Shown in pieces: positions 128 through 47,911 of a stretch of 59,658 bases of DNA; position 1 is the stretch's first letter; each line of letters opens with the position of its first letter. Both the position numbers and the translations under genes were made by a program. The DNA comes from a virus (Duplodnaviria; Caudoviricetes): positions 1 to 59,658 of the IMG/VR virus record IMGVR_UViG_3300027851_000001; one strand, written 5' to 3'. The notes under the pieces were generated by a model. It searched no databases and had not been told where the DNA came from. It saw nothing but the letters and a program-made list of their open reading frames with translations.

Positions 128-2540
128 TGTGGCGTGCGCGCACGAGGCTGGCCCGTTCGACCTGAAGGACTTGGCGCCGCTGAAGGCGTGGGGTGCGCAG
201 GCGGAGACAGCGAAGCCGGCCGTAGCGCTGGCACCCCGCAAGGCGTCCGGCGTCATGTCCGCGATGAGTAACAGCCGGGATGTGGACCTGAGCCTCGTAG
301 CGCAGAACTGCCAGCAGATCAGGGCGCTGCTGGACTCGGGTGGTGCGACTGATGCGATGGGCCGGCGGGTGGAGGAGCCGCTGTGGCGCCTGTCCATAGG
401 CTTGGCGAAACACTGCGTCGACGACCGCGCGTCCATCGTCATGATCGCCGGGCAGCACCCGGACTTCGACATGAACGCCAACACCGAAAAAATGGCGGCA
501 TGGGTGGGTGGGCCGCCGGTGTGCGCATCGTTCGAGTCGCAGTGCTCCGGCGGTTGCGACGGGTGCCCCAGCAAGGGGCGTGTCACCTCGCCGGCGGGGG
601 TCTCGTACACCAACACCCCACAGGTGCCCGCAGAGGTCGTTGCGGCGTCGAACGGGGGCCAGGGCATACCCACGGTGCCCTCAGGCGTATCGGTGCCTCC
701 GGGCGGCCCCCTGCTGCCCATGCCACCGGGTTACATGATGGGACAGGTAGCAAGGCCCCACCAGCACGTGGTGCGTGAGGAGGTGGACGACTCGGAGGAG
801 GGCGGCGGCATGAAGCAGGTCGCTGTGGCACCCTATGAGATGTACGTCACGGGTGTGTACTCGGACGCGCTGCGCAACCGCACCACGGCCATCTTGCTGG
901 TGCGTTTCCCGAACGACGGCTGGAAAGAGTTCGACATGCCGATCGACGTGCTGGCCACCGCTGGCAAGGAATTTCTCGTGTACATGCTCAGCAAACTGAT
1001 CATGCTCGACACGATCAACTCAGTGAATGAAGTGAGGAAATATCTCATGCGCTACATCGACTTCGTGCAACAGCAGGCACCCGTGGGCGCCGACTTCGAC
1101 GGCTTCGGCTGGCAGCCGGACGGCTCGTTCCTGTGCGGCCACCGCCTGCTGGGCTCTCCCACTGGCAACACCGTGCGCCGCCTGAGCGGCCCGGCCAAGC
1201 TGGTCGGCGACTCCATCATCACCGAGGGCGACCGGGGTGTGTTCGTGGACGCCATGCGCATGCTGGACGAGCCCTGTGCCAACAACGTGTCTGCTGCGGT
1301 GCTGCTGAGCACAGCGGGCATCCTCGGCAAGTACTCCGGCAACTCGTCGTTCCTCGTGTCGATCTACTCGACCGAGACCACCACCGGCAAGTCGCTGGCG
1401 CTGGCCGCGGTGAACAGCCTGATCGGGCGCCACCGCTCCCTGCTGCTGGGCCAGCGCGACACCGCCAACGCGGTGTACAAGATGCGCGGCGTGCTCAACC
1501 AGCTGCCGGCCACCATGGACGAGCTGACGCTGCAGGACGGCGAGGAGGCGGTGTCGCTGGCGTACAACCTGAGCCAGGGGCGCGAGAAGCTGGCCATGGA
1601 CCGCAACCGCGACATCCGCGACCCGGTGACGTGGGAGGGACCCACCATCATCACCACGAACCACTCGATGCACCAGAAGTTCGACGAGTTCATGTCGCAG
1701 GCCGACCCGGTCAAGGCCCGCACGCTGGAGTTGCACCAGCATGACCGCGAGTTCATCCAGGGCATGGACGGCAAGCGCGGCACGATCTTCTACCAGATGC
1801 TGGAGGACAACCACGGCTTCGCCTTCCCCGAGCTGATCGAAGCCATCGTCGCCTACGGCGGCGCGCGCAAGTTCTGGGAGACCGCAGAACAGCAGTTCGA
1901 GTCCCGCGTCGGGTTCACGTTCGAGCCGCAGGAGCGCTTCTACCGCTCGGCCATCATCAGCGGCTGGGCGATCGGCAAGCTGGGCAAGACCCTCGGCCTG
2001 TTCCCGTTCGATGTGGACCGTGTGACCGAGTACCTGTGCGATCAGGTCCGGGCCTACCGCAAGCGCGCCGCTGACTCCCGCGTGGACGCCTTCGACATCG
2101 TGGGCCAGTTCCTGTCGGAGCACAACGACCGCATCATCGTCTGCCGTGAGCAGTATGCCAGCGGCCCGGTGAAGAATCAGGAGCAGGTGCAGTTCCCGGT
2201 GCCCGAGCTGGCCGTGGCCCGCATGAAGGTGGTGTTCGACGGAACCAACCCGGTGATGCCGGGCAGCGTGCTGTCCCTGAACCAGATCACGTTCAAGAAA
2301 TGGCTTAGCCGATCGCGTGACAGTATCCAGCGGGTGTCGGACGAACTGCTCATGGCCGGCGCCCTGGTGGCTGAACGTGAGCGCGTGACGATGTACAAGG
2401 GCTGCCAGCGGGACAACCCGGGGCAGGCGTTCTGCATCACCATCAACCTGAACCATCCACGGTTCGTGGATGCGCTGACGTCACCCAAGGCTCGTATGCC
2501 GAGCCCGGTGACGTTGGCGGTGCTGGGGGGAACGAAATGA
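9..2540 (+). CDS. Primase-helicase C-terminal part (Cys cluster plus DUF927-like P-loop domain)
   Basis: CASFESQCSGGCDGC cluster; Walker A-like ETTTGKS; Walker B-like ATMDE; FGWQ motif typical of DUF927. Confidence 0.8.
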   Translation: MLKLALGEHGLDIDPSKVNDPSMVLRPVGTHHKKQTPWKDVACAHEAGPFDLKDLAPLKAWGAQAETAKPAVALAPRKASGVMSAMSNSRDVDLSLVAQNCQQIRALLDSGGATDAMGRRVEEPLWRLSIGLAKHCVDDRASIVMIAGQHPDFDMNANTEKMAAWVGGPPVCASFESQCSGGCDGCPSKGRVTSPAGVSYTNTPQVPAEVVAASNGGQGIPTVPSGVSVPPGGPLLPMPPGYMMGQVARPHQHVVREEVDDSEEGGGMKQVAVAPYEMYVTGVYSDALRNRTTAILLVRFPNDGWKEFDMPIDVLATAGKEFLVYMLSKLIMLDTINSVNEVRKYLMRYIDFVQQQAPVGADFDGFGWQPDGSFLCGHRLLGSPTGNTVRRLSGPAKLVGDSIITEGDRGVFVDAMRMLDEPCANNVSAAVLLSTAGILGKYSGNSSFLVSIYSTETTTGKSLALAAVNSLIGRHRSLLLGQRDTANAVYKMRGVLNQLPATMDELTLQDGEEAVSLAYNLSQGREKLAMDRNRDIRDPVTWEGPTIITTNHSMHQKFDEFMSQADPVKARTLELHQHDREFIQGMDGKRGTIFYQMLEDNHGFAFPELIEAIVAYGGARKFWETAEQQFESRVGFTFEPQERFYRSAIISGWAIGKLGKTLGLFPFDVDRVTEYLCDQVRAYRKRAADSRVDAFDIVGQFLSEHNDRIIVCREQYASGPVKNQEQVQFPVPELAVARMKVVFDGTNPVMPGSVLSLNQITFKKWLSRSRDSIQRVSDELLMAGALVAERERVTMYKGCQRDNPGQAFCITINLNHPRFVDALTSPKARMPSPVTLAVLGGTK

Positions 2541-2776
2541 ACCACATGCTCAAGATAGCCCCCGCATATTTCCAGGCGGTGCGGGACGGGCGCAAGACGT
2601 TCGAGATCCGCAAAAACGATCGCCACTTTGAGGAGGGGGATGGCGTAACCCTGCGCGAGTACGACGGGGGGTACACGGGGCGACTTCACGCCGCCACGAT
2701 TGGCTACGTCACCGCATACGAACAGCAGCCAGGGTACGTCGTGTTCTCGCTGCTGCTGGCGAAGGAGCCAACATGA
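2537..2776 (+). CDS. ASCH/DUF3850 domain protein
   Basis: LKIAPAYFQAVRDGRKTFEIRKNDRHFEEGD matches the ASCH GxKxxExR signature. Confidence 0.85.
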   Translation: MNHMLKIAPAYFQAVRDGRKTFEIRKNDRHFEEGDGVTLREYDGGYTGRLHAATIGYVTAYEQQPGYVVFSLLLAKEPT

Positions 2777-2928
2777 TCCGCTTCTACTTCCGCAAGGGCC
2801 GGTGGCGCGTGACGTCCACCACCAAGCAGGTGCCGGCCACGGAGTGGTGGAACGCCATCAACGCCGTGAAGTGCATGAACCATAGGCTGCGTACAGCGCG
2901 GCAGAACACCGCCGATGACCGGCTTTAG
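2773..2928 (+). CDS. Small hypothetical protein (51 aa) ending inside the attC-like site
   Basis: AGGAG RBS and ATGA overlap with the upstream gene; MIRFYFRKGRW...QNTADDRL. Confidence 0.55.
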   Translation: MIRFYFRKGRWRVTSTTKQVPATEWWNAINAVKCMNHRLRTARQNTADDRL

Positions 2929-2951
2929 TCCGGTCGATTTAAGAGTTGGGC
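2901..2951 (-). other. attC-like recombination site 1A
   Basis: Minus strand GCCCAAC-TCTTA-AAT(C)GACCGG(A)CTAAAG-CCGGTCATC-GGCGGT-GTTCTGC: R'', 5-nt spacer, L'' with extrahelical C, hairpin, L', R'. Confidence 0.75.
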
Positions 2952-2971
2952 TGATGCCCGGAAAGGAACCC

Positions 2972-3163
2972 ATGGGAAAAGTGCAAAGCGCTGTATGGCG
3001 CGATCTTTTCGACCCCGGATGGCGCGAGCGGGAGGCCGCCCTTGTTGCGAAGTTTTTGGCGCTCATACCAGCGCGCTGCGGCTGCCAACTTGGTACGTGC
3101 CAGAGCAAGCCGGACGGTTGCCGCATGCGCCAGGAAATCAAGCCGGGCAGCGGTGCGCAGTAG
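2972..3163 (+). CDS. Cassette gene, hypothetical protein (63 aa, Cys-rich C-terminus)
   Basis: AAAGGA RBS; the stop lies 2 nt before GCCCAAC of the next site. Confidence 0.6.
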   Translation: MGKVQSAVWRDLFDPGWREREAALVAKFLALIPARCGCQLGTCQSKPDGCRMRQEIKPGSGAQ

Positions 3164-3165
3164 TT

Positions 3166-3217
3166 GCCCAACACCACCAATGAGCCGCCTGCGGTCGGCT
3201 CGATTACAGAGTTGGGC
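3166..3217 (-). other. attC-like recombination site 1B
   Basis: Minus strand GCCCAAC-TCTGT-AAT(C)GAGCCG(A)CCGCAGG-CGGCTCATT-GGTGGT-GTTGGGC, with perfectly complementary R''/R'. Confidence 0.8.
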
Positions 3218-3236
3218 TGATGCCCTGGAGAACACG

Positions 3237-3536
3237 ATGGAAACACCAAAACCAATGGCTGGAACTTGGACGCTTACCGCACCAGATGGGCGAGAGTGGA
3301 AAGCAGAAACACCGCTTCGCTGTTGTGGGCTTGAGCAAAGAGAGCGAGTCCCCGCAGATGTTGCGCTAGCAAGAATTCTTGCTGCTGCAAAACTTGGTGC
3401 CGACGACAGAGATAGCGAACTATTGCAAGCCGCTCTCTATGCACTGGAATACCACACCGAACAAACGCGCCCGATCCAGTCAACCAATGATGCTATTGCC
3501 GCACTGCGCAAAAGGCTGCTGCCCAACACCAATTAG
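3237..3536 (+). CDS. Cassette gene, hypothetical protein (99 aa)
   Basis: GGAG RBS; visibly more AT-rich than core genes; ends ...LLPNTN inside the attI-like site. Confidence 0.7.
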   Translation: METPKPMAGTWTLTAPDGREWKAETPLRCCGLEQRERVPADVALARILAAAKLGADDRDSELLQAALYALEYHTEQTRPIQSTNDAIAALRKRLLPNTN

Positions 3537-3560
3537 GCGACGACGACCGTCGCGTAACAC
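3521..3560 (-). other. attI-like site of array 1
   Basis: Minus strand GTGTTACGCGACGGTCGTCGTCGCCTAATTGGT-GTTGGGC; 3525-3560 is 27/36 identical to 47809-47844; resembles the class 1 attI1 DR1-L-R layout. Confidence 0.6.
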
Positions 3561-3586
3561 CGGCACAAGCATTTACGCCCGACGGG

Positions 3587-3838
3587 CTATTTCATCCCCG
3601 CCGACTTCGTCCTAGCGAACGACCGGTTCTGCGACGCGGGCACAGCCCGTAGGTTCCCACCCCCGTTGCCGCCGCCCTTGACGATCGGCTTGCGGTGATC
3701 GACGTCGAGCCCGTCTCCTTTGCGGACGAGGCCCTTCTTCTCCATGGTGGCGCGCGCAGCGTTGCGGGCTGCACGATTCTTGATCTGCTCCGGCTTGCCA
3801 CCATAGTTCCGGTACTCATCTGCGTAATTTCTGGCCAT
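3587..3838 (-). CDS. Small HNH endonuclease
   Basis: DVDHRKPIVKGGGNGGGNLRAVPASQNR, an HNH beta-beta-alpha motif. Confidence 0.8.
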   Translation of the reverse strand: MARNYADEYRNYGGKPEQIKNRAARNAARATMEKKGLVRKGDGLDVDHRKPIVKGGGNGGGNLRAVPASQNRSFARTKSAGMK

Positions 3839-3839
3839 C

Positions 3840-6800
3840 TTACTCTCCACGTAGTTCACTGATTTCTTCCTGCATCCGCTTCAGCAGCTCGGTCTGCCGT
3901 TCGGCAAAACGCGCCCAATCCGGGCGCTCGTAGCGGGCCTCGGCGCGGCGCAGCCGGCCAATCTCCTGCTTGTACTCCGACATGATAGCCTTGGCCGCGC
4001 GGCTCTGGGCCACCACGGCTTGGTCCTCGTTGAACGAGTACACCTTCATGCCGAACCACTTGGCGACCTGCACCGCCTCGAAGCCCTCGGGCTTGTCCTT
4101 GCGCCCCTTTAGGATGTCGTCCACGCGTTCACCACGCATGAAGTCCACCACGGGGGGCGGCGCCACCTGGGCGGCGATCTCCCGGCCGCGCGTCAGGAAC
4201 TTCTCCCACATGGTGTCCGTGGGTGGCGACAGCGGCTTGGCGAAGTACGGGTCAACGCCGGCCACCGCGGTGATGATGGTCGACACCAGGGGGCCGGTGG
4301 GGGTGATGGCAGACGGGAACCACTCCTGCCCCATGAACCCGTTGGGCTGGCCGCGCGCCACCGAGGTCCACGGCAGGTAGTCGCCCAGGCGGTAGTACAC
4401 GGGGGACTTGTCGTCACCGAGGAACGGCAGGCGGATGTGCACGTAGGGACCCATGCCGAACATGCGGTCGCGGATGTACTCGGGCCCAGCCTTGCGCAGC
4501 CGCTCGTCCTCCTCATCCCCGCCAGCCATCTCCTGAAACGCATGTTCTAGGATGGCGAACGCCAGCATGATGTTGGCGATCTTCCACGGCTGGTGCACTG
4601 CGATCTTTCCCATGACCGGGATGATGGCGTAGGTCCACGAGATGAAGGGCAGCACCGTCTGGCGCGCCATGCGCACCGCCTTGGAGTCGATGTCGTAGTC
4701 GAGGAAGGCCCAGCGCGCGAAGTCGCCAGCAGCCTGCAGATCCTCGGCCGTCAGCTTGCCGTCGTGCAGGGCGGAGAGGTCGGCCGCGTGCTTCAGGAAG
4801 GCGGCCATGCGGAACACGTTGTCCTCGGCGGAGTACGCCTCGGTGATGATTTCATCCACCCGGCCACCGACGCCCTTGGCTTTGTCGACATGCTTCTGCA
4901 GTGCCTCGGACTTGGCCTTCTCCATTTTGGTCAGCGCCCCCAGGCGGCCCATGATCGTCGTGTCGCCCTCCAGCGACTCGCGCATGGCGTTGTACAGCGA
5001 CTGCTTGACCTCGGCCGAGGAGAAGTCGCCGATCATGGCGTTGGAGTTGATGAAGGCCAGCACCAGCTGGCGCTCGGCCGGCTTCATGGAGTTCGGACGG
5101 AGTTCGTACTGCGCCATAAGGCGCGCGGCTTCCTTCACGGTCGCCAGCGGAATGTCGTGCATCGTCGCCAGGGTGAAGTTGGTCGCCACGTTGGTCAGGT
5201 GGGTGCCGGGGTTGTAGACTGTCTTGGCTTTCTTGAACCAGCGCATGCCGGTGTTCAGCGAACGGAACGAGGTCGCCGGGCGGCGGTCGCTCATGTCCTG
5301 CATCGCCATCCACACGCCACTCCTGATCAGCTTGCCCTTGAGCGTGCCGTATGCGTCAGAGTCCGGCAGCTGCACCCACAGGTGCGGGGAGCGGTACAGG
5401 TGCTGGGTCTGCGTGCTGCGCGCGGCGTCGCTGCCGGCCTTGAGCACCAGCGCCGGGTCGATCTTGATCTTCAGCGAGTCCTCGGCATGGGCGATGCTGT
5501 CGAACGCCACGGCGTTGTCAGGGTGCCCGTCGCTGTGCCCGTATGTGGCCAGTGAGTCCGAGAACTGCTTGGACGCGAAGTTGTTAGCGAGCGCTGACAT
5601 CGTGTTGCGCAGCGCGTTGGACAGCTTCTCCGCCTGCTGGGCCTGCACCGCCTGCTTCACCGTCATCGACGCGCGGAAGGTGTGCTTGCCGTTGGCGAAG
5701 CTGGTGTGGAACCACACGTATTCCTGATCCACCATGTGGCCAGCGGGGGCTCCGACGCGGTCGAACTTTTCCGCGGCCATGAACCCATCGTGCGCCTTGT
5801 TGCCAGCGGCGTCCATGTGGAACACCTCGAAGTACTTGCCGTCCAGCACCGGGTCCCCCTGGGCGTCCAGCATCATCCACGAGGTCTCCAGATTTTCCTC
5901 GACCTGCTTTTTCTCGCCCAGCATGCTGTTGAGCTTGCGCAGGCCGAAGGTCTGGCCCGCCACCTGTTCCTCGGTGTTGGCGAACAGCATGGTCTCGGAG
6001 AACTTGCCGCTGGAGAAGAACCGCGACGCCTTCTCGTTGCCGAGCCGGGACACGTAGAAGTCGCGCCAGCGCACCACCTCGTCGGCCAGTTCGGCGGTAG
6101 CCTTGTCATCGCCCAGCGCCTGCTTGTCGCCGTCGAGGTAGTCGAAGATCGCCTGGATCTTGGCAGGGGACTGGCGCTGCACGAACGTGGCCAAGCGCTC
6201 GGTCAGCTTGTACCCTGCCTGCTTGTCGTCCTTGTACTGCTCGAACGCGGCGCGGGAGTCCACCGGCACGGCGAAGCGCGTGTTGACGTAGGTGAGCCAG
6301 CGGGCGATGCCGGGGAAGTCGTCGCGCACCTTCTCGGCCAGCTTGTCGGACTGCTCCAGCACTTTGTTGGCGCCGTACTTCCACCCCAGCGCGTCGAAGA
6401 TGAACTTCGTGCTGAGGAACGAGGGCAGGATTTTCTTGTTGTAGCGCGACACGTCGGTGTCGGAGGGCAGTTGCGCACCGGGGCGGGCCAGCAGTTCGGG
6501 AATGCTGCTCGTCGGGTCCATGCCGGACATGACCTCGGCCTTGAGGATGTTGCCCTTCCTTTTCCCTGGGGCGTCGATGCCGGGGGCAGCGGCCATCTCC
6601 AGCAGCGCCACGGTGCCGTCGAGCACATCGTTGGCCACGGTGTTGGAGACGCCGAGGAACTTCTGCACCAGTCGCGTGATGCGCAGCCAGATAGCGGACA
6701 ACCCGGACATGCCGGTGTCCTTCTCCTGCACGGTCTCCATGCCCTTGAGCGCCTTGCGGAACTCATACAGCGTGCTGCCGTAGGAGATCAGTTCGAGCAC

Positions 6801-45710: not shown

Positions 45711-46064
45711 ATGAAGCACGAACAACCCGAGCCGCAGCCCCACCTGTGGGACGGCACCCCGATGGCCGCGATGCCCTACGTCATCAGCAAGGAGAACTCA
45801 GTGCCAACCAACCACGACGAAACCCTGTGTGGTGAGCGAGAGCTTGCGCTGGTGGCGAAAGTTGAGGCGCAGGCTCGGCGTATTGCTGCGATGGAGAAAG
45901 ATGCTGCTCGGTATTTGTGGCTGCGCAATAACTGGTTCACCATGGGAGCGGCTTACCCGGATGAAAAGGTTAAGTTCTACACCAATTGCACTCGTTGGTC
46001 AGATCAACCGGAAACGAACATTGACGAGGCCGTTGACGCCGAACTTTTGAAGGATCAGAAATGA
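45711..46064 (+). CDS. Hypothetical protein (mosaic, DAARYxWLR motif)
   Basis: AAGGAG RBS; KDAARYLWLRN is a common phage accessory motif. Confidence 0.6.
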   Translation: MKHEQPEPQPHLWDGTPMAAMPYVISKENSVPTNHDETLCGERELALVAKVEAQARRIAAMEKDAARYLWLRNNWFTMGAAYPDEKVKFYTNCTRWSDQPETNIDEAVDAELLKDQK

Positions 46065-46348
46065 CTGAAAAACTGAGGGCGATTGCCATGTTGGACGAGA
46101 TAGACCGGCTGAAGGCGGAGAACGCGGGGCTTCTGGCCATGAAAAGCGATCTGGCCTGCCTCGTTCAACGGCTGGCACGCAAGCACCACGACACCGCACT
46201 GGCGACCAAGGCGATGCAGTACGTGGTTAGAAAAGACCTGATCGGGGACTACATGCGAAACACGGAATTCGGCGTTACCGATGGCGAACTGCAACGACTC
46301 GTGGACACCATCAAGGGCCACGCAGCAAAGGGAGAAAGCCATGAGTGA
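46061..46348 (+). CDS. Hypothetical protein
   Basis: ATGA overlap. Confidence 0.55.
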   Translation: MTEKLRAIAMLDEIDRLKAENAGLLAMKSDLACLVQRLARKHHDTALATKAMQYVVRKDLIGDYMRNTEFGVTDGELQRLVDTIKGHAAKGESHE

Positions 46349-46655
46349 AGCACTGAGACTGGCGGAATACTGTGAAGGGCTTGCATCCGAGATTGACCAC
46401 TCACATTTCACGCACGACCTGCTTGCGTCAGCAGAAGCGCTTCGCCGCCTCGCCAGCGTGGAAGACGAGCTCCACCAGGCGCGGGAAGAGCTTGCAGCGC
46501 TGAGGGCCTCGCTGGGTGAGCCTGTGCCTGAAGTTGTCATCGCCCACTACGGTGGGCAAACCCGAGGTATTGGTTACAGCAAGCTGCAGGCTTTGGTAGA
46601 CCCTGAAAAACTACCTATAGGCGCGAAGCTATACGCCATCAAGGACAAATCATGA
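46341..46655 (+). CDS. Hypothetical protein
   Basis: GGAG RBS; 8-nt overlap. Confidence 0.55.
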   Translation: MSEALRLAEYCEGLASEIDHSHFTHDLLASAEALRRLASVEDELHQAREELAALRASLGEPVPEVVIAHYGGQTRGIGYSKLQALVDPEKLPIGAKLYAIKDKS

Positions 46656-46704
46656 GCAACACCACCGATGACCGGCGCTAGTCCGGTCCATGAATGAGTT
46701 GGGC
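46654..46704 (-). other. attC-like recombination site 2A
   Basis: Minus strand GCCCAAC-TCATT-CAT(G)GACCGG(A)CTAGCG-CCGGTCATC-GGTGGT-GTTGCTC. Confidence 0.7.
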
Positions 46705-46725
46705 TTAGGCCCGGAGAGGAACAAC

Positions 46726-47073
46726 ATGACCTTGGAAGAATTCGTCCGATCTGACATGCAGATGCTGCGAAAGCTGGCCGCTCGCGGAGTGGTAGAAAAA
46801 TCGTACCTGGAAGAAACCGCTGACATGCGGTTGCTGGACCTGGCGCAACGCGCAATGCGAGAGAAACTGAGTCTCGCCAGGCGCAAGGGGCGCGGCGGCT
46901 GGTGGAACCAAGCTGAGTGCTCTATCGACCACCTCAAAGCACTGCTGAGCGATCACGTCGAGAAGGGCGACATGCGCGACGTGATGAACCTGGCCGCGAT
47001 GGTGTACCTGCGTGAGGTCGCCGACGAGCAGCCCAACACCACGATGACCACCGCGCCGCGTGCGGTCGATTAA
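46726..47073 (+). CDS. Cassette gene, hypothetical protein
   Basis: GAGGA RBS; reads through the next attC to a TAA; RRKGRGGWW...HVEKGDMRDVMNLAAM. Confidence 0.7.
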   Translation: MTLEEFVRSDMQMLRKLAARGVVEKSYLEETADMRLLDLAQRAMREKLSLARRKGRGGWWNQAECSIDHLKALLSDHVEKGDMRDVMNLAAMVYLREVADEQPNTTMTTAPRAVD

Positions 47074-47083
47074 CCAGTTCGGC
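47031..47083 (-). other. attC-like recombination site 2B
   Basis: Minus strand GCCGAAC-TGGTT-AAT(C)GACC-GCACGCGGCGCGGT-GGTCATC-GTGGT-GTTGGGC. Confidence 0.7.
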
Positions 47084-47104
47084 ACTGCCGACAGAAAGGA
47101 AACC

Positions 47105-47356
47105 ATGAGCCAAACGCTGGAAGAACTGGGAGACGCGATCACAGACGCGCTGGCGACCAACCCCGTGCAAGACGTGCTCGGCGTGCTGTGCGGCGCGCTG
47201 GTCGGGCTGGTGCGCGAATTGACGATTCGGAGCGGCAACGACCCGGATAAAACCATCACGCTTGATGCAGGTCCGGGGCAACGCAAGATCGAGATTCACG
47301 CGCTGCCGAACACCGAAGTTGACCGGGCCAGCGGGTCCGGTCGGACGCAGAGTTAA
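47105..47356 (+). CDS. Cassette gene, hypothetical protein
   Basis: AAAGGA RBS; the stop lies in GTTAAAC of the next site. Confidence 0.65.
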   Translation: MSQTLEELGDAITDALATNPVQDVLGVLCGALVGLVRELTIRSGNDPDKTITLDAGPGQRKIEIHALPNTEVDRASGSGRTQS

Positions 47357-47358
47357 AC
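47305..47358 (-). other. attC-like recombination site 2C
   Basis: Minus strand GTTTAAC-TCTGC-GTC(C)GACCGG(A)CCCGCTGGC-CCGGTCAAC-TTCGGT-GTTCGGC. Confidence 0.75.
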
Positions 47359-47387
47359 AGGAGCCCGAACGGGCAGAAGGAACCGAA

Positions 47388-47810
47388 ATGCAGATGTGGA
47401 TTGACACCGAGTTCAACGAATACAAGGGCGCGCTGATTTCCATGGCGCTGGTGGCAGAAGACGGGCGCGAGTGGTACGGCGTGCGCTTCTGCGATGACCC
47501 CGGCTGGTGGGTTGGCGAGCATGTGATGCCTTTCCTGAACAAAGAGCCGCAGCGCGACGACTATTTGCGCGCGTCCCTGCACGACTTTTTGGAGCAGTTT
47601 GACAGCGTGCAAATCGTGTCGGATTGGCCCGGAGACATCGCGCACTTCTGCAACTTCTTGGAGTACCGGCCAGGGGACCGCATCGGCCCGGACACGATGA
47701 CTTTTGAGGTGCGCCGCGACTTGCCGGACACAGCGAAAACATCGGCGATCCCACACAACGCACTTGAAGACGCCCGGGCGCTGGCGCGCGGTGCATTGGC
47801 TGCTGTTTAA
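47388..47810 (+). CDS. Cassette gene, DEDD 3'-5' exonuclease-like protein
   Basis: WIDTEFNE...SDWPGDI...PHNALEDARAL (DEDDh); the stop is in GTTTAAC. Confidence 0.75.
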   Translation: MQMWIDTEFNEYKGALISMALVAEDGREWYGVRFCDDPGWWVGEHVMPFLNKEPQRDDYLRASLHDFLEQFDSVQIVSDWPGDIAHFCNFLEYRPGDRIGPDTMTFEVRRDLPDTAKTSAIPHNALEDARALARGALAAV

Positions 47811-47844
47811 CACAAATTCGGGAACACCACCCGTCGCATAACAC
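47805..47844 (-). other. attI-like site of array 2
   Basis: Minus strand GTGTTATGCGACGGGTGGTGTTCCCGAATTTGT-GTTAAAC; homologous to 3525-3560. Confidence 0.6.
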
Positions 47845-47911
47845 CGCCACCACCTGACGCAAGCCATTGATCCACAAGGCTTCACCGAATAACAGAACTT
47901 GGAAACACAAC

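What the first reader, a model, noticed from the sequence alone, without database searches (positions are those of the whole stretch)
2901..3560. Second cassette array of the same type at the end of the replication operon (2 cassettes)
Seen: two more attC-shaped sites (2901-2951, 3166-3217) bound 265- and 355-bp single-gene units, both starting GAGTTGGGCTGATGCCC and ending GCCCAAC. The outermost R' (GTTCTGC) does not pair with its R'', as expected if it came from the original target site. Site 1A shares GATGACCGGC..TAGTCCGGTC with site 2A, about 16 kb away on the circle. Inference: two independent loci with the same architecture and polarity point to a system rather than a single accidental capture.
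Basis: partly seen in the sequence, partly recalled or inferred. Interest (0 to 1): 0.85.

Follow-up and report, generated by a model that had tools for sequence, protein, structure and literature searches.

The report
Integron gene cassettes in a phage
The last two small genes of this phage's replication operon are genuine integron-type swappable cassettes docked at an integron entry site whose integrase gene has been lost, and related phages still carry that integrase.

Summary
Window 2901-2951 and 3166-3217 are true attC sites. They bound two cassettes, 2907-3171 and 3172-3526, docked at an attI site (3521-3566).

- **attC identity.** A covariance model built from 36 such phage sites finds exactly these sites in the window. 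It also finds 10 canonical class 1 attC sites on plasmids, always on the integrase-sense strand.
- **Cassette ends.** The box that starts a gene unit is the exact reverse complement of the box that ends it in 28 of 39 units. Within one site it is so in 2 of 45.
- **Mobility.** Contigs of other samples hold cassette 1 joined straight to attI, and cassette 2 in other contexts. The breaks lie at the AAC box.
- **Integrase.** The window has no recombinase. The same attI lies directly before an integron integrase in L086 (TIGR02249, 434 bits). 54 viral contigs encode relatives of it.
- **Orientation.** Genes run backwards relative to bacterial cassettes: the attC lies ahead of each gene.

Phage CALINs are already published (Qi et al. 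2023). The reversed, phage-resident family is a new variant. This scan noted reversed phage arrays before on other DNA (e1-5981734, e1-5971010, e1-6097322).

The parts
2901..2951 (+). attC site 1A. Left box GCAGAAC, 6-nt spacer, L stem with an unpaired T and G on the 3' arm, 5-nt spacer, right box GTTGGGC. It is a hybrid site: its left half-box belongs to the flank beyond the array.
   Evidence: Model R1 hit, 54.5 bits, E 2e-11. Alignment A1.
2907..3171 (+). Cassette 1 (265 bp): attC 1A body, conserved leader with a small hairpin and ribosome-binding site, ORF1, closing half-box GCCCAA.
   Evidence: Start and end boxes are complementary. A contig of run X2 holds 2901-3176 (8 differences) joined directly to an attI-type sequence.
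2971..3163 (+). ORF1, 64 aa, no known family.
   Evidence: No Pfam or PHROG match. A ribosome-binding site lies directly after the attC.
3166..3217 (+). attC site 1B. Its boxes GCCCAAC and GTTGGGC pair with each other.
   Evidence: R1 hit, 63.5 bits. Folds to the attC shape at -13.2 kcal/mol, z -3.5. The stretch of site and leader from window 3170 matches L004 (96.9% over 65 nt) and L048 (98.4% over 62 nt), with other genes on both sides.
3172..3526 (+). Cassette 2 (355 bp): attC 1B body, leader, ORF2. GC is 54.9% against 63.7% for the genome.
   Evidence: boxes, GC. Run X3 contigs are identical over 3253-3530 and then continue into another attC-like site. A 2.6-kb X4 contig holds 3180-3527 and then an attI variant and unlike DNA.
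3237..3536 (+). ORF2, 99 aa, no named family. Its last codons and its stop are encoded by attI.
   Evidence: 69 homologues in metagenomes. The closest viral homologue (L141, 66% identity) is also a cassette, bracketed by GTTATGC and GCATAAC.
3521..3566 (+). attI-type entry site (1C): crossover box ending in AAC at 3525-3527, then AATT, then CGTCGCGTAAC.
   Evidence: Aligns in register with the site that precedes intI in L086-L099 and with attI1 of plasmid R100. It lacks the attC structure (R1 E 0.92).
46654..47850 (+). Sister array 2: attC 2A (46654-46704), 2B (47031-47083) and 2C (47305-47358); three cassettes cut at 46659/46660, 47036/47037, 47310/47311 and 47810/47811; attI 2D from 47805.
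   Evidence: R1 hits at 47.7, 49.2 and 60.1 bits. Box pairs are GTTGGGC/GCCCAAC, GTTCGGC/GCCGAAC and GTTAAAC/GTTTAAC. The ORFs match phrog_8298, phrog_18086 and phrog_2259.
47856..47880 (+). Remnant of the 5' end of an integron integrase gene, about 25 nt after attI 2D.
   Evidence: Aligns with the first codons of intI in L086, L087 and L137. No integrase domain is left anywhere in the genome.

Best explanation
Window 2901-3566 is an integrase-less integron cassette array: a CALIN that still has its attI, sitting at the end of the phage's replication operon. It holds two cassettes. Each consists of an attC site followed by a short leader and one small gene.

Shown:
- The sites are attC sites in sequence and structure.
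- Cassette ends lie at the AA|C of the left box.
- The array ends in an attI homologous to the one that directly precedes an integron integrase gene in related viral contigs.
- Relatives differ by whole cassettes.
- The attC sites have the usual orientation relative to attI and intI, but the genes are inverted inside the cassettes. The coding strand is therefore the equivalent of the recombinogenic attC bottom strand. Transcription of the phage operon runs through the cassettes towards attI.

Inferred:
- An IntI enzyme folds the single-stranded plus strand of an attC, cuts between A and C, excises cassettes as circles and inserts them at attI. That position is the last in the operon.
- This phage has lost intI. 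Its cassettes can therefore move only if IntI is supplied by a co-infecting phage of the same integron family or by the host.
For: Structure.
- 36 aligned sites share invariant AAC and GTT boxes. The L stem has compensatory changes in 10 of 11 pairs and 89.8% of cells paired.
- The layout is a 7-nt box, 6-nt spacer, 3 bp, 6 bp, loop, unpaired T, 6 bp, unpaired G, 3 bp, 5-nt spacer, 7-nt box. It equals the bottom strand of the aadA1 attC read from plasmid R100.

Reciprocal model test.
- Model R1, built from phage sites only, hits the aadA1 attC of R100 at 48.2 bits, E 9e-10. That is its only hit in 50 kb.
- It hits 9 of about 13 attC sites expected from the annotated cassette genes in three class 1 arrays.
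- All 10 hits are on the intI1-sense strand.

Cassette logic.
- The right box of site i against the left box of site i+1 is perfect in 28 of 39 units, with 14 box types.
- The two boxes of one site are perfect in 2 of 45.
- 0 of 20,000 permutations reach 28.
- In integrase-bearing loci the same count is 25 of 36.

Boundaries.
- L037 and L071 are 100% identical for 116 nt starting at the AAC of the left box, with unrelated DNA upstream.
- L009 and L071 share a two-gene cassette (79% over 481 nt) that starts at that AAC and stops at GCCCAAC, with unrelated DNA after it.
- X2, X3 and X4 contigs break at the same boxes of the window.

Platform.
- L086 has attC, a cassette, the same attI, and then intI. 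The intI product scores 434.5 bits on TIGR02249, cut-off 265.
- 54 viral loci encode relatives at 43-85% identity. 27 of the 27 I checked pass the integron-integrase cut-off.
- 74 of 75 R1 hits in those loci lie on the intI strand; in the loci I checked by eye they lie upstream of intI.
- The attI alignment includes attI1 of R100.

Orientation.
- A ribosome-binding site, a start codon and at least 40 codons leave the site on the model strand at 30 of 41 and 36 of 52 phage sites.
- The same holds at 0 of 10 class 1 sites.
Against: - No integrase, resolvase or Y1 transposase is present in the window's complete genome. Activity in this phage is therefore not shown, and the array may be a fossil.
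- The box test fails in 11 of 39 units: 8 with one mismatch, 3 with more.
- Site 1A alone is not unusually stable.
- Ten of 11 viral loci with homologues of ORF2's N-terminal domain show no R1-type site within 2.5 kb. The gene family therefore also lives outside cassettes.
- The variants come from assembled contigs of other samples, not from reads.
- Seven of the 27 integrase-bearing records are classed as proviruses. In those the integron could lie in host flank.
- IntegronFinder and HattCI, the field's standard attC detectors, were not available.
Confidence: 0.88

Rival explanations
1. Passive cargo: a piece of a host chromosomal integron (attI plus cassettes) was picked up by illegitimate recombination. 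It has no phage-specific role and no phage-resident system behind it.
For: - Published phage integrons are mostly of this kind: Vibrio integron fragments and class 1 mosaics (Qi et al. 2023, passages seen).
- The family's IntI is 51.7% identical to IntI1.
- 7 of 27 integrase-bearing records are classed as proviruses.
Against: - All five window cassette genes read with the phage operon.
- Three match phage protein families.
- The reversed gene orientation is shared by 30 of 41 and 36 of 52 phage sites and by 0 of 10 class 1 sites.
- There are two separate arrays, each with its own attI.
- Integrase relatives sit in 54 viral contigs, two of them records with terminal repeats.
- I found no bacterial array of this type, though only one narrow genome scan was possible.
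Confidence: 0.08
2. These are regulatory intergenic hairpins (terminators, RNA processing sites or promoter-stem-loop modules like the PeSLs of T4-type phages). They only look like attC, and genes are shuffled between them by ordinary homologous recombination.
For: - Each site is followed by a conserved leader, a small second hairpin and a ribosome-binding site.
- Identical leaders precede unrelated genes.
- PeSL shuffling is recalled from the literature, not read here.
Against: - No T-run terminators or sigma-70 promoters lie at the sites.
- The model hits real attC sites strand-specifically.
- Complementarity links boxes about 300 bp apart across each gene, which homologous exchange would not keep.
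- Homology breaks lie at the AAC box.
- An integron integrase sits next to the same end site in relatives.
Confidence: 0.03
3. Chance resemblance of a few GC-rich inverted repeats.
For: The single-sequence fold of site 1A is unremarkable.
Against: Motif enrichment, covariation, permutation test, and E-values of 1e-9 to 1e-13.
Confidence: 0.01

Closest known systems
CALINs (clusters of attC sites lacking an integron integrase) in phage genomes: Qi, Rajabal, Ghaly, Tetu and Gillings 2023, Front Microbiol, PMC9892861. I read the abstract, section 3.4 and found passages. Supplements were not seen.
   Same: Rows of attC sites separating single small genes in phages without intI. Methyltransferase cassettes occur, as in L005 and L086 here. 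In that paper five of six phage attC sites were recombined by IntI1.
   Different: - Here both arrays keep an attI and one keeps a stub of intI.
- The genes are inverted within the cassettes.
- The attC, attI and IntI type recurs in dozens of uncultured viral contigs.
[quoted passage not shown] I could not see its figures or supplements to compare orientations.
Class 1 integron (intI1, attI1, attC cassettes), read here from plasmid R100 (L006) and three other plasmids (L152-L154).
   Same: - The attC layout, including both unpaired bases and the spacer lengths.
- attC orientation relative to intI.
- attI with the crossover box and a TAAC (DR1) box about 30 nt away, in the same register.
- IntI 51.7% identical.
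   Different: - In the phage family intI starts about 10-15 nt after the TAAC box of attI. In R100 it starts roughly 100 nt further on.
- Cassette genes lie on the intI strand rather than opposite it.
- The window itself has no intI.
[quoted passage not shown] 2023, section 3.3, passages seen).
   Same: Two arrays in one phage genome, each starting at an attI.
   Different: M16-3 keeps an IntI 95% identical to its host's, and it is a cryptic prophage. The window phage has none, and its attI type is found next to integrases of viral contigs.
PeSL modules of T4-type phages (promoter-early stem-loops that flank shuffled small genes).
   Same: Small accessory genes flanked by repeated stem-loop modules in a phage's plastic region.
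   Different: PeSLs act through homologous recombination and carry promoters. The sites here are attC sites with cassette-specific complementary boxes and an associated integrase family.

Membership tests
integron attC site | Terminal inverted boxes RYYYAAC and GTTRRRY with invariant AAC and GTT | tested here: met
   AAC and GTT are invariant in 36 of 36 aligned sites. The window boxes GCCCAAC and GTTGGGC fit the consensus. The outer half-box of 1A (GCAG-AAC) does not, as expected for a flank-derived half.
integron attC site | Imperfect inner (L) stem with two unpaired bases on one arm and unpaired spacers of 5-6 nt next to the boxes | tested here: met
   10 of 11 L-stem pairs show compensatory changes. 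An unpaired T and G lie on the 3' arm of the plus strand, 6 bp apart, as in the aadA1 attC bottom strand read from R100.
integron attC site | Recognised by an attC profile (the field uses the IntegronFinder and HattCI models) | tested here: inconclusive
   Those models were not on hand. The reciprocal test passed: a model built from phage sites alone finds 10 canonical attC sites on plasmids (1 in R100, 9 of about 13 in three arrays), all on the same strand relative to intI1.
integron attC site | Recombined by an integron integrase as folded single-stranded DNA | not testable with these tools
   Needs an attC x attI assay.
integron gene cassette | The half-box at the start of a cassette is complementary to the box of its own attC, not to the neighbour's (crossover inside the box) | tested here: met
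   28 of 39 units against 2 of 45 within one site. Homology breakpoints lie at AA|C.
integron gene cassette | Usual polarity: the gene lies on the attC top strand, with its attC after its 3' end | tested here: not met
   All five window genes lie on the bottom-strand equivalent, with the attC ahead of the 5' end. Family-wide this holds at 30 of 41 and 36 of 52 sites, against 0 of 10 in class 1 arrays.
CALIN | Two or more attC sites close together with no intI nearby | tested here: met
   Two sites lie 215 bp apart (three in array 2). No PF00589 match at E<=1 exists in the whole 59.6-kb genome.
complete integron | An intI gene next to attI | tested here: not met
   Absent from the window; only a stub of about 25 nt remains at 47856-47880. 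Met in relatives: L086 and 27 of 27 records checked.
attI site | Non-attC site at the integrase-proximal end of the array, with the crossover box and further integrase-box repeats | tested here: met
   3521-3566 and 47805-47850 align with the sequence between the last cassette and the intI start in L086-L099, and with attI1 of R100. AAC and TAAC are invariant. Integrase binding was not tested.
intrinsic terminator or sigma-70 promoter | A hairpin followed by a T-run, or -35 and -10 hexamers | tested here: not met
   No promoter-like site in 2400-4000. The one terminator-like site lies inside ORF1, and that count is below the shuffle mean.

The most novel reading that the evidence does not exclude
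Tailed phages of freshwater, wastewater and soil communities keep an integron system of their own. It comprises a distinct IntI clade, a compact attI placed some 25-30 nt before intI, and a shared pool of back-to-front cassettes read by the phage's early operon. Unrelated phages trade accessory genes through it. Integrase-less phages such as this one would be clients that depend on IntI supplied by co-infecting phages or by hosts.
Probability: 0.5. Interest if true: 0.8.

Novelty: new variant of a known kind. Interest (0 to 1): 0.62.

Why it matters
Integrons are known as bacterial gene-capture platforms. Phages were thought to carry them rarely and mostly by accident.

Here a complete phage genome holds two arrays with intact entry sites. 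The same site types and a matching integrase recur in dozens of viral contigs, with genes built in so that phage transcription reads them.

If the system is active, it is a site-specific route for mosaicism in phage accessory genes, including DNA methyltransferases that can blunt restriction. It also predicts cassette traffic between phages, and between phages and bacterial integrons.

It offers a simple test bed as well. The sites, the entry site and a candidate integrase are all in hand.

Tried and rejected
**Empty allele.** That contig is AT-rich and shares nothing else with the window, so I count it as a chance match.

**Close relatives of the phage.**
- The window's first 20 kb finds nothing in GenBank phages.
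- The primase/helicase finds no relative in viral contigs.
- The terminase is at most 38% identical to cultured phages.
- Window proteins have few matches in the integrase-bearing loci; L117 shares lysis genes.
- Synteny with near kin could therefore not be examined.

**Host.**
- The single genome scan gave one 2.6-kb contig binned in an uncultured Aquiluna genome.
- I treat the binning as unreliable and draw no host from it.
- The genome search draws no relatives for a virus record.

**Metagenome scan.** Of 79 loci with the 17-mer, about 10 are real sites, two pairs of which are duplicates. The rest are chance or another repeat.

**First site scanners.**
- A fold-energy scanner missed the known sites.
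- A geometry scanner gave many false positives.
- Both were replaced by the covariance model.

**Crude orientation measure.** The longest ORF between sites gave 24 plus against 12 minus. It is noisy in GC-rich DNA, so I replaced it with the ribosome-binding-site and start-codon test.

**ORF2 homologues.** Ten of 11 viral loci have no R1 site nearby. I did not check them by eye.

**Runs.** Only X2, X3, X4 and X6 of the 24 listed were laid. Parts without cover mean nothing.

**Literature.** Searches found no paper on reversed cassettes or a phage integrase clade. The library lacks most subscription journals. The supplements of Qi et al. could not be seen and may list gene orientations.

**Not used.** Structure prediction and complex prediction, as no claim here needs them.

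Full report
**Setting.** The window is a complete virus record of 59,658 bases. Its first and last 127 bases repeat, so the circle is about 59.5 kb. GC is 63.7%. Plus-strand early and replication genes run from about 33 kb across the window's ends to 3.5 kb. There they meet the minus-strand late genes. The finding lies at the very end of that plus-strand operon. It follows a primase/helicase-like gene, a DUF3850/ASCH gene (2537-2776) and a 51-codon ORF.

**Observation.**
- Sites 2901-2951 and 3166-3217 have the same build: a 7-nt box ending in AAC, a 6-nt spacer, an imperfect hairpin, a 5-nt spacer and a 7-nt box starting with GTT. A conserved leader, a ribosome-binding site and an ATG follow.
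That is 3 matches against 0.29 expected.
- A second group of three sites lies at 46654-47358.

**Is it an attC?**
- I gathered further copies by scanning viral contigs (L004, L005) and metagenome contigs. Of the 79 metagenome loci only about 10 are real.
- Thirty-six sites align over 61 columns with AAC and GTT invariant.
- The inner stem has compensatory changes in 10 of 11 pairs and 89.8% of cells paired. Versions of the structure slid by one to three columns reach 21-46%.
- On the plus strand an unpaired T and an unpaired G lie 6 bp apart on the 3' arm.
- I did not rely on memory for the comparison. I read a real class 1 integron from plasmid R100. The bottom strand of its aadA1 attC has the same order of parts and the same spacer lengths.
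- A covariance model built from the phage sites only (R1) finds five full sites in the window and one weak hit at 3521-3538. It finds the aadA1 attC of R100 as its only hit in 50 kb (48.2 bits, E 9e-10).
- In three further class 1 arrays it finds 9 of about 13 expected attC sites.
- All ten plasmid hits are on the strand that encodes IntI1, which is the attC bottom strand.

**Cassette logic.**
- In an integron the crossover lies inside a box. The half-box at a cassette's start therefore matches the box of its own attC at its other end.
- That is what I see here. The right box of one site is the exact reverse complement of the left box of the next site in 28 of 39 gene units, with 14 different box types.
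- The two boxes of one site match in only 2 of 45. No permutation out of 20,000 reaches 28; the mean is 5.3.
- In the window the pairs are GTTGGGC/GCCCAAC (three times), GTTCGGC/GCCGAAC and GTTAAAC/GTTTAAC.
- The eleven failures are eight with one mismatch and three with more.
- Some units are homologous between loci, so the counts are not fully independent.

**Where the cassettes end.**
- L037 and L071 are identical for 116 nt beginning at the AAC of the left box, with unrelated DNA before it.
- L009 and L071 share a two-gene unit (79% over 481 nt) that begins there and stops at GCCCAAC, with unrelated DNA after it.
- So the attC travels with the gene that follows it, and the junction is at AA|C.

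**Variation among relatives.** I laid contigs of four other public runs on 2300-4300.
- X2 holds 2901-3176 (8 differences) and continues directly into an attI-type sequence. This is an allele without cassette 2.
- X3 holds 3253-3530 without a single difference and continues into another attC-like site.
- X4 holds 3180-3527 on a 2.6-kb contig, followed by an attI variant and DNA unlike the window.
- X6 bridges the 1-2 junction exactly as in the window.
- The sequence shared at these joints is shorter than the assembler's word, so a repeat-induced mis-join is unlikely. They are still contigs, not reads.
- The fully empty allele was not found.

**The end site and the missing enzyme.**
- Both window arrays end in homologous sequence that lacks the attC structure (3521-3566 and 47805-47850).
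- The window has no tyrosine recombinase, resolvase or Y1 transposase. Neither do the records of L004 and L005.
- The one genome-contig hit, L086, is decisive. It reads methyltransferase cassette, attC, cassette, the same end sequence, and about 10 nt later a gene whose product scores 434.5 bits on the integron-integrase model TIGR02249 (cut-off 265).
- With that protein I found 54 viral loci at 43-85% identity. All 27 of the 27 records I checked pass the cut-off with open frames. Two have terminal repeats, seven are classed as proviruses, and 16 are at least 90% complete.
- In those loci 74 of 75 R1 hits lie on the integrase strand; in the loci I checked by eye they lie upstream of the integrase gene. 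Plasmid R100 has the same geometry.
- The stretch between the last cassette and the integrase start is conserved. It aligns in register with attI1 of R100, with invariant AAC, TT, G..G and TAAC.
- The window's array 2 keeps about 25 nt of the integrase gene's start. L005 (the contig of L137) keeps residues 2-57.
- Array 1 may keep about a dozen bases of it, which is only suggestive.
- The window arrays are thus integrons that have lost intI.

**Orientation.**
- Relative to attI and intI the attC sites are canonical, but the genes are turned round.
- A ribosome-binding site, a start codon and at least 40 open codons leave the site on the model strand at 30 of 41 sites of the first set and 36 of 52 sites of the integrase-bearing loci. 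On the other side the counts are 1 and 1.
- In class 1 arrays the counts are 0 of 10 on the model strand and 3 of 10 on the other side.
- Three of the five window cassette genes match phage protein families on that strand.
- Several ORFs run on into the neighbouring attC or into attI, which supply their last codons and stop.

**Cargo.**
- ORF1 and ORF2 have no family.
- ORF2 has 69 metagenomic homologues. The closest viral one (L141, 66% identity) is again a cassette with its own box pair. Ten more distant ones show no R1 site nearby.
- Cassette 2 has 54.9% GC against 63.7% for the genome.

**What is known.**
- Qi et al. 2023 (PMC9892861; abstract, section 3.4 and passages read) screened 10,705 phage genomes. 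They found 3 complete integrons, 1 integrase without cassettes and 17 CALINs, and showed IntI1 recombining five of six phage attC sites.
- The kind is therefore published.
- In GenBank phages only 9 records hold a homologue of the L086 integrase. Most are the cases of that paper, and the best is at 51.7% identity.
- My three literature searches found no description of reversed cassettes or of a viral integrase clade.
I tested these points on this DNA myself.

**Verdict.** This is a new variant of a known kind: an integrase-less, attI-bearing, gene-reversed integron array that belongs to a phage-associated integron family. Activity in this phage and the source of IntI remain inferred.

Noticed in passing
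window 2948-2959, 3214-3225, 46701-46712, 47078-47090, 47364-47376: A second small hairpin sits right after, or overlapping, the right box and ahead of the ribosome-binding site. Its stem sequence changes between sites while the pairing is kept. It would compete with box-box pairing, or act on the mRNA leader.
   Followed up: no
window 3170-3231; L004 6188-6239 (minus); L048 1702-1766: The stretch of attC and leader from window 3170 matches three unrelated contigs (96.9% over 65 nt with L004, 98.4% over 62 nt with L048). The genes on both sides differ.
   Followed up: partly
L005 (minus strand) 6175-1596: An array of at least 12 cassettes ends at the same attI type as window array 2, followed by a truncated integrase gene. 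One cassette holds a likely C5 cytosine methyltransferase, judged by eye from its sequence. L086 has an N6/N4 methyltransferase cassette (Pfam).
   Followed up: partly
L004 (minus strand) 6716-6239: One cassette holds a gene on the opposite strand with an AT-rich promoter-like stretch of its own. It is still bracketed by a perfect box pair.
   Followed up: no
records G006, G009-G015, G017, G020-G023, G025, G027: Many integrase-bearing viral records have a second, weaker tyrosine-recombinase match, in several within 1-2 kb of intI. It may be a phage integrase, so part of the family may be temperate.
   Followed up: no
KX853513.1 (Virus Rctr41k), 4656-5639: A deposited 41-kb virus from an enrichment culture encodes a protein 44% identical to the L086 integron integrase, annotated only as xerD-like. 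It is similar in size to many of the IMG/VR records.
   Followed up: no
window 3587-3859 (minus): A small HNH/endonuclease VII-like gene (phrog_4590) ends 20 nt beyond the attI of array 1, convergent with the array.
   Followed up: no
L027, L077, L080: Large bacterial contigs carry the same 17-mer inside a different repeat made of two adjacent small hairpins. This looks unrelated to attC.
   Followed up: no
window 45711-46655: The three small plus-strand genes just upstream of array 2 fell below my GC3 filter (0.72), unlike most genes of the genome. No attC sites lie between them.
   Followed up: no
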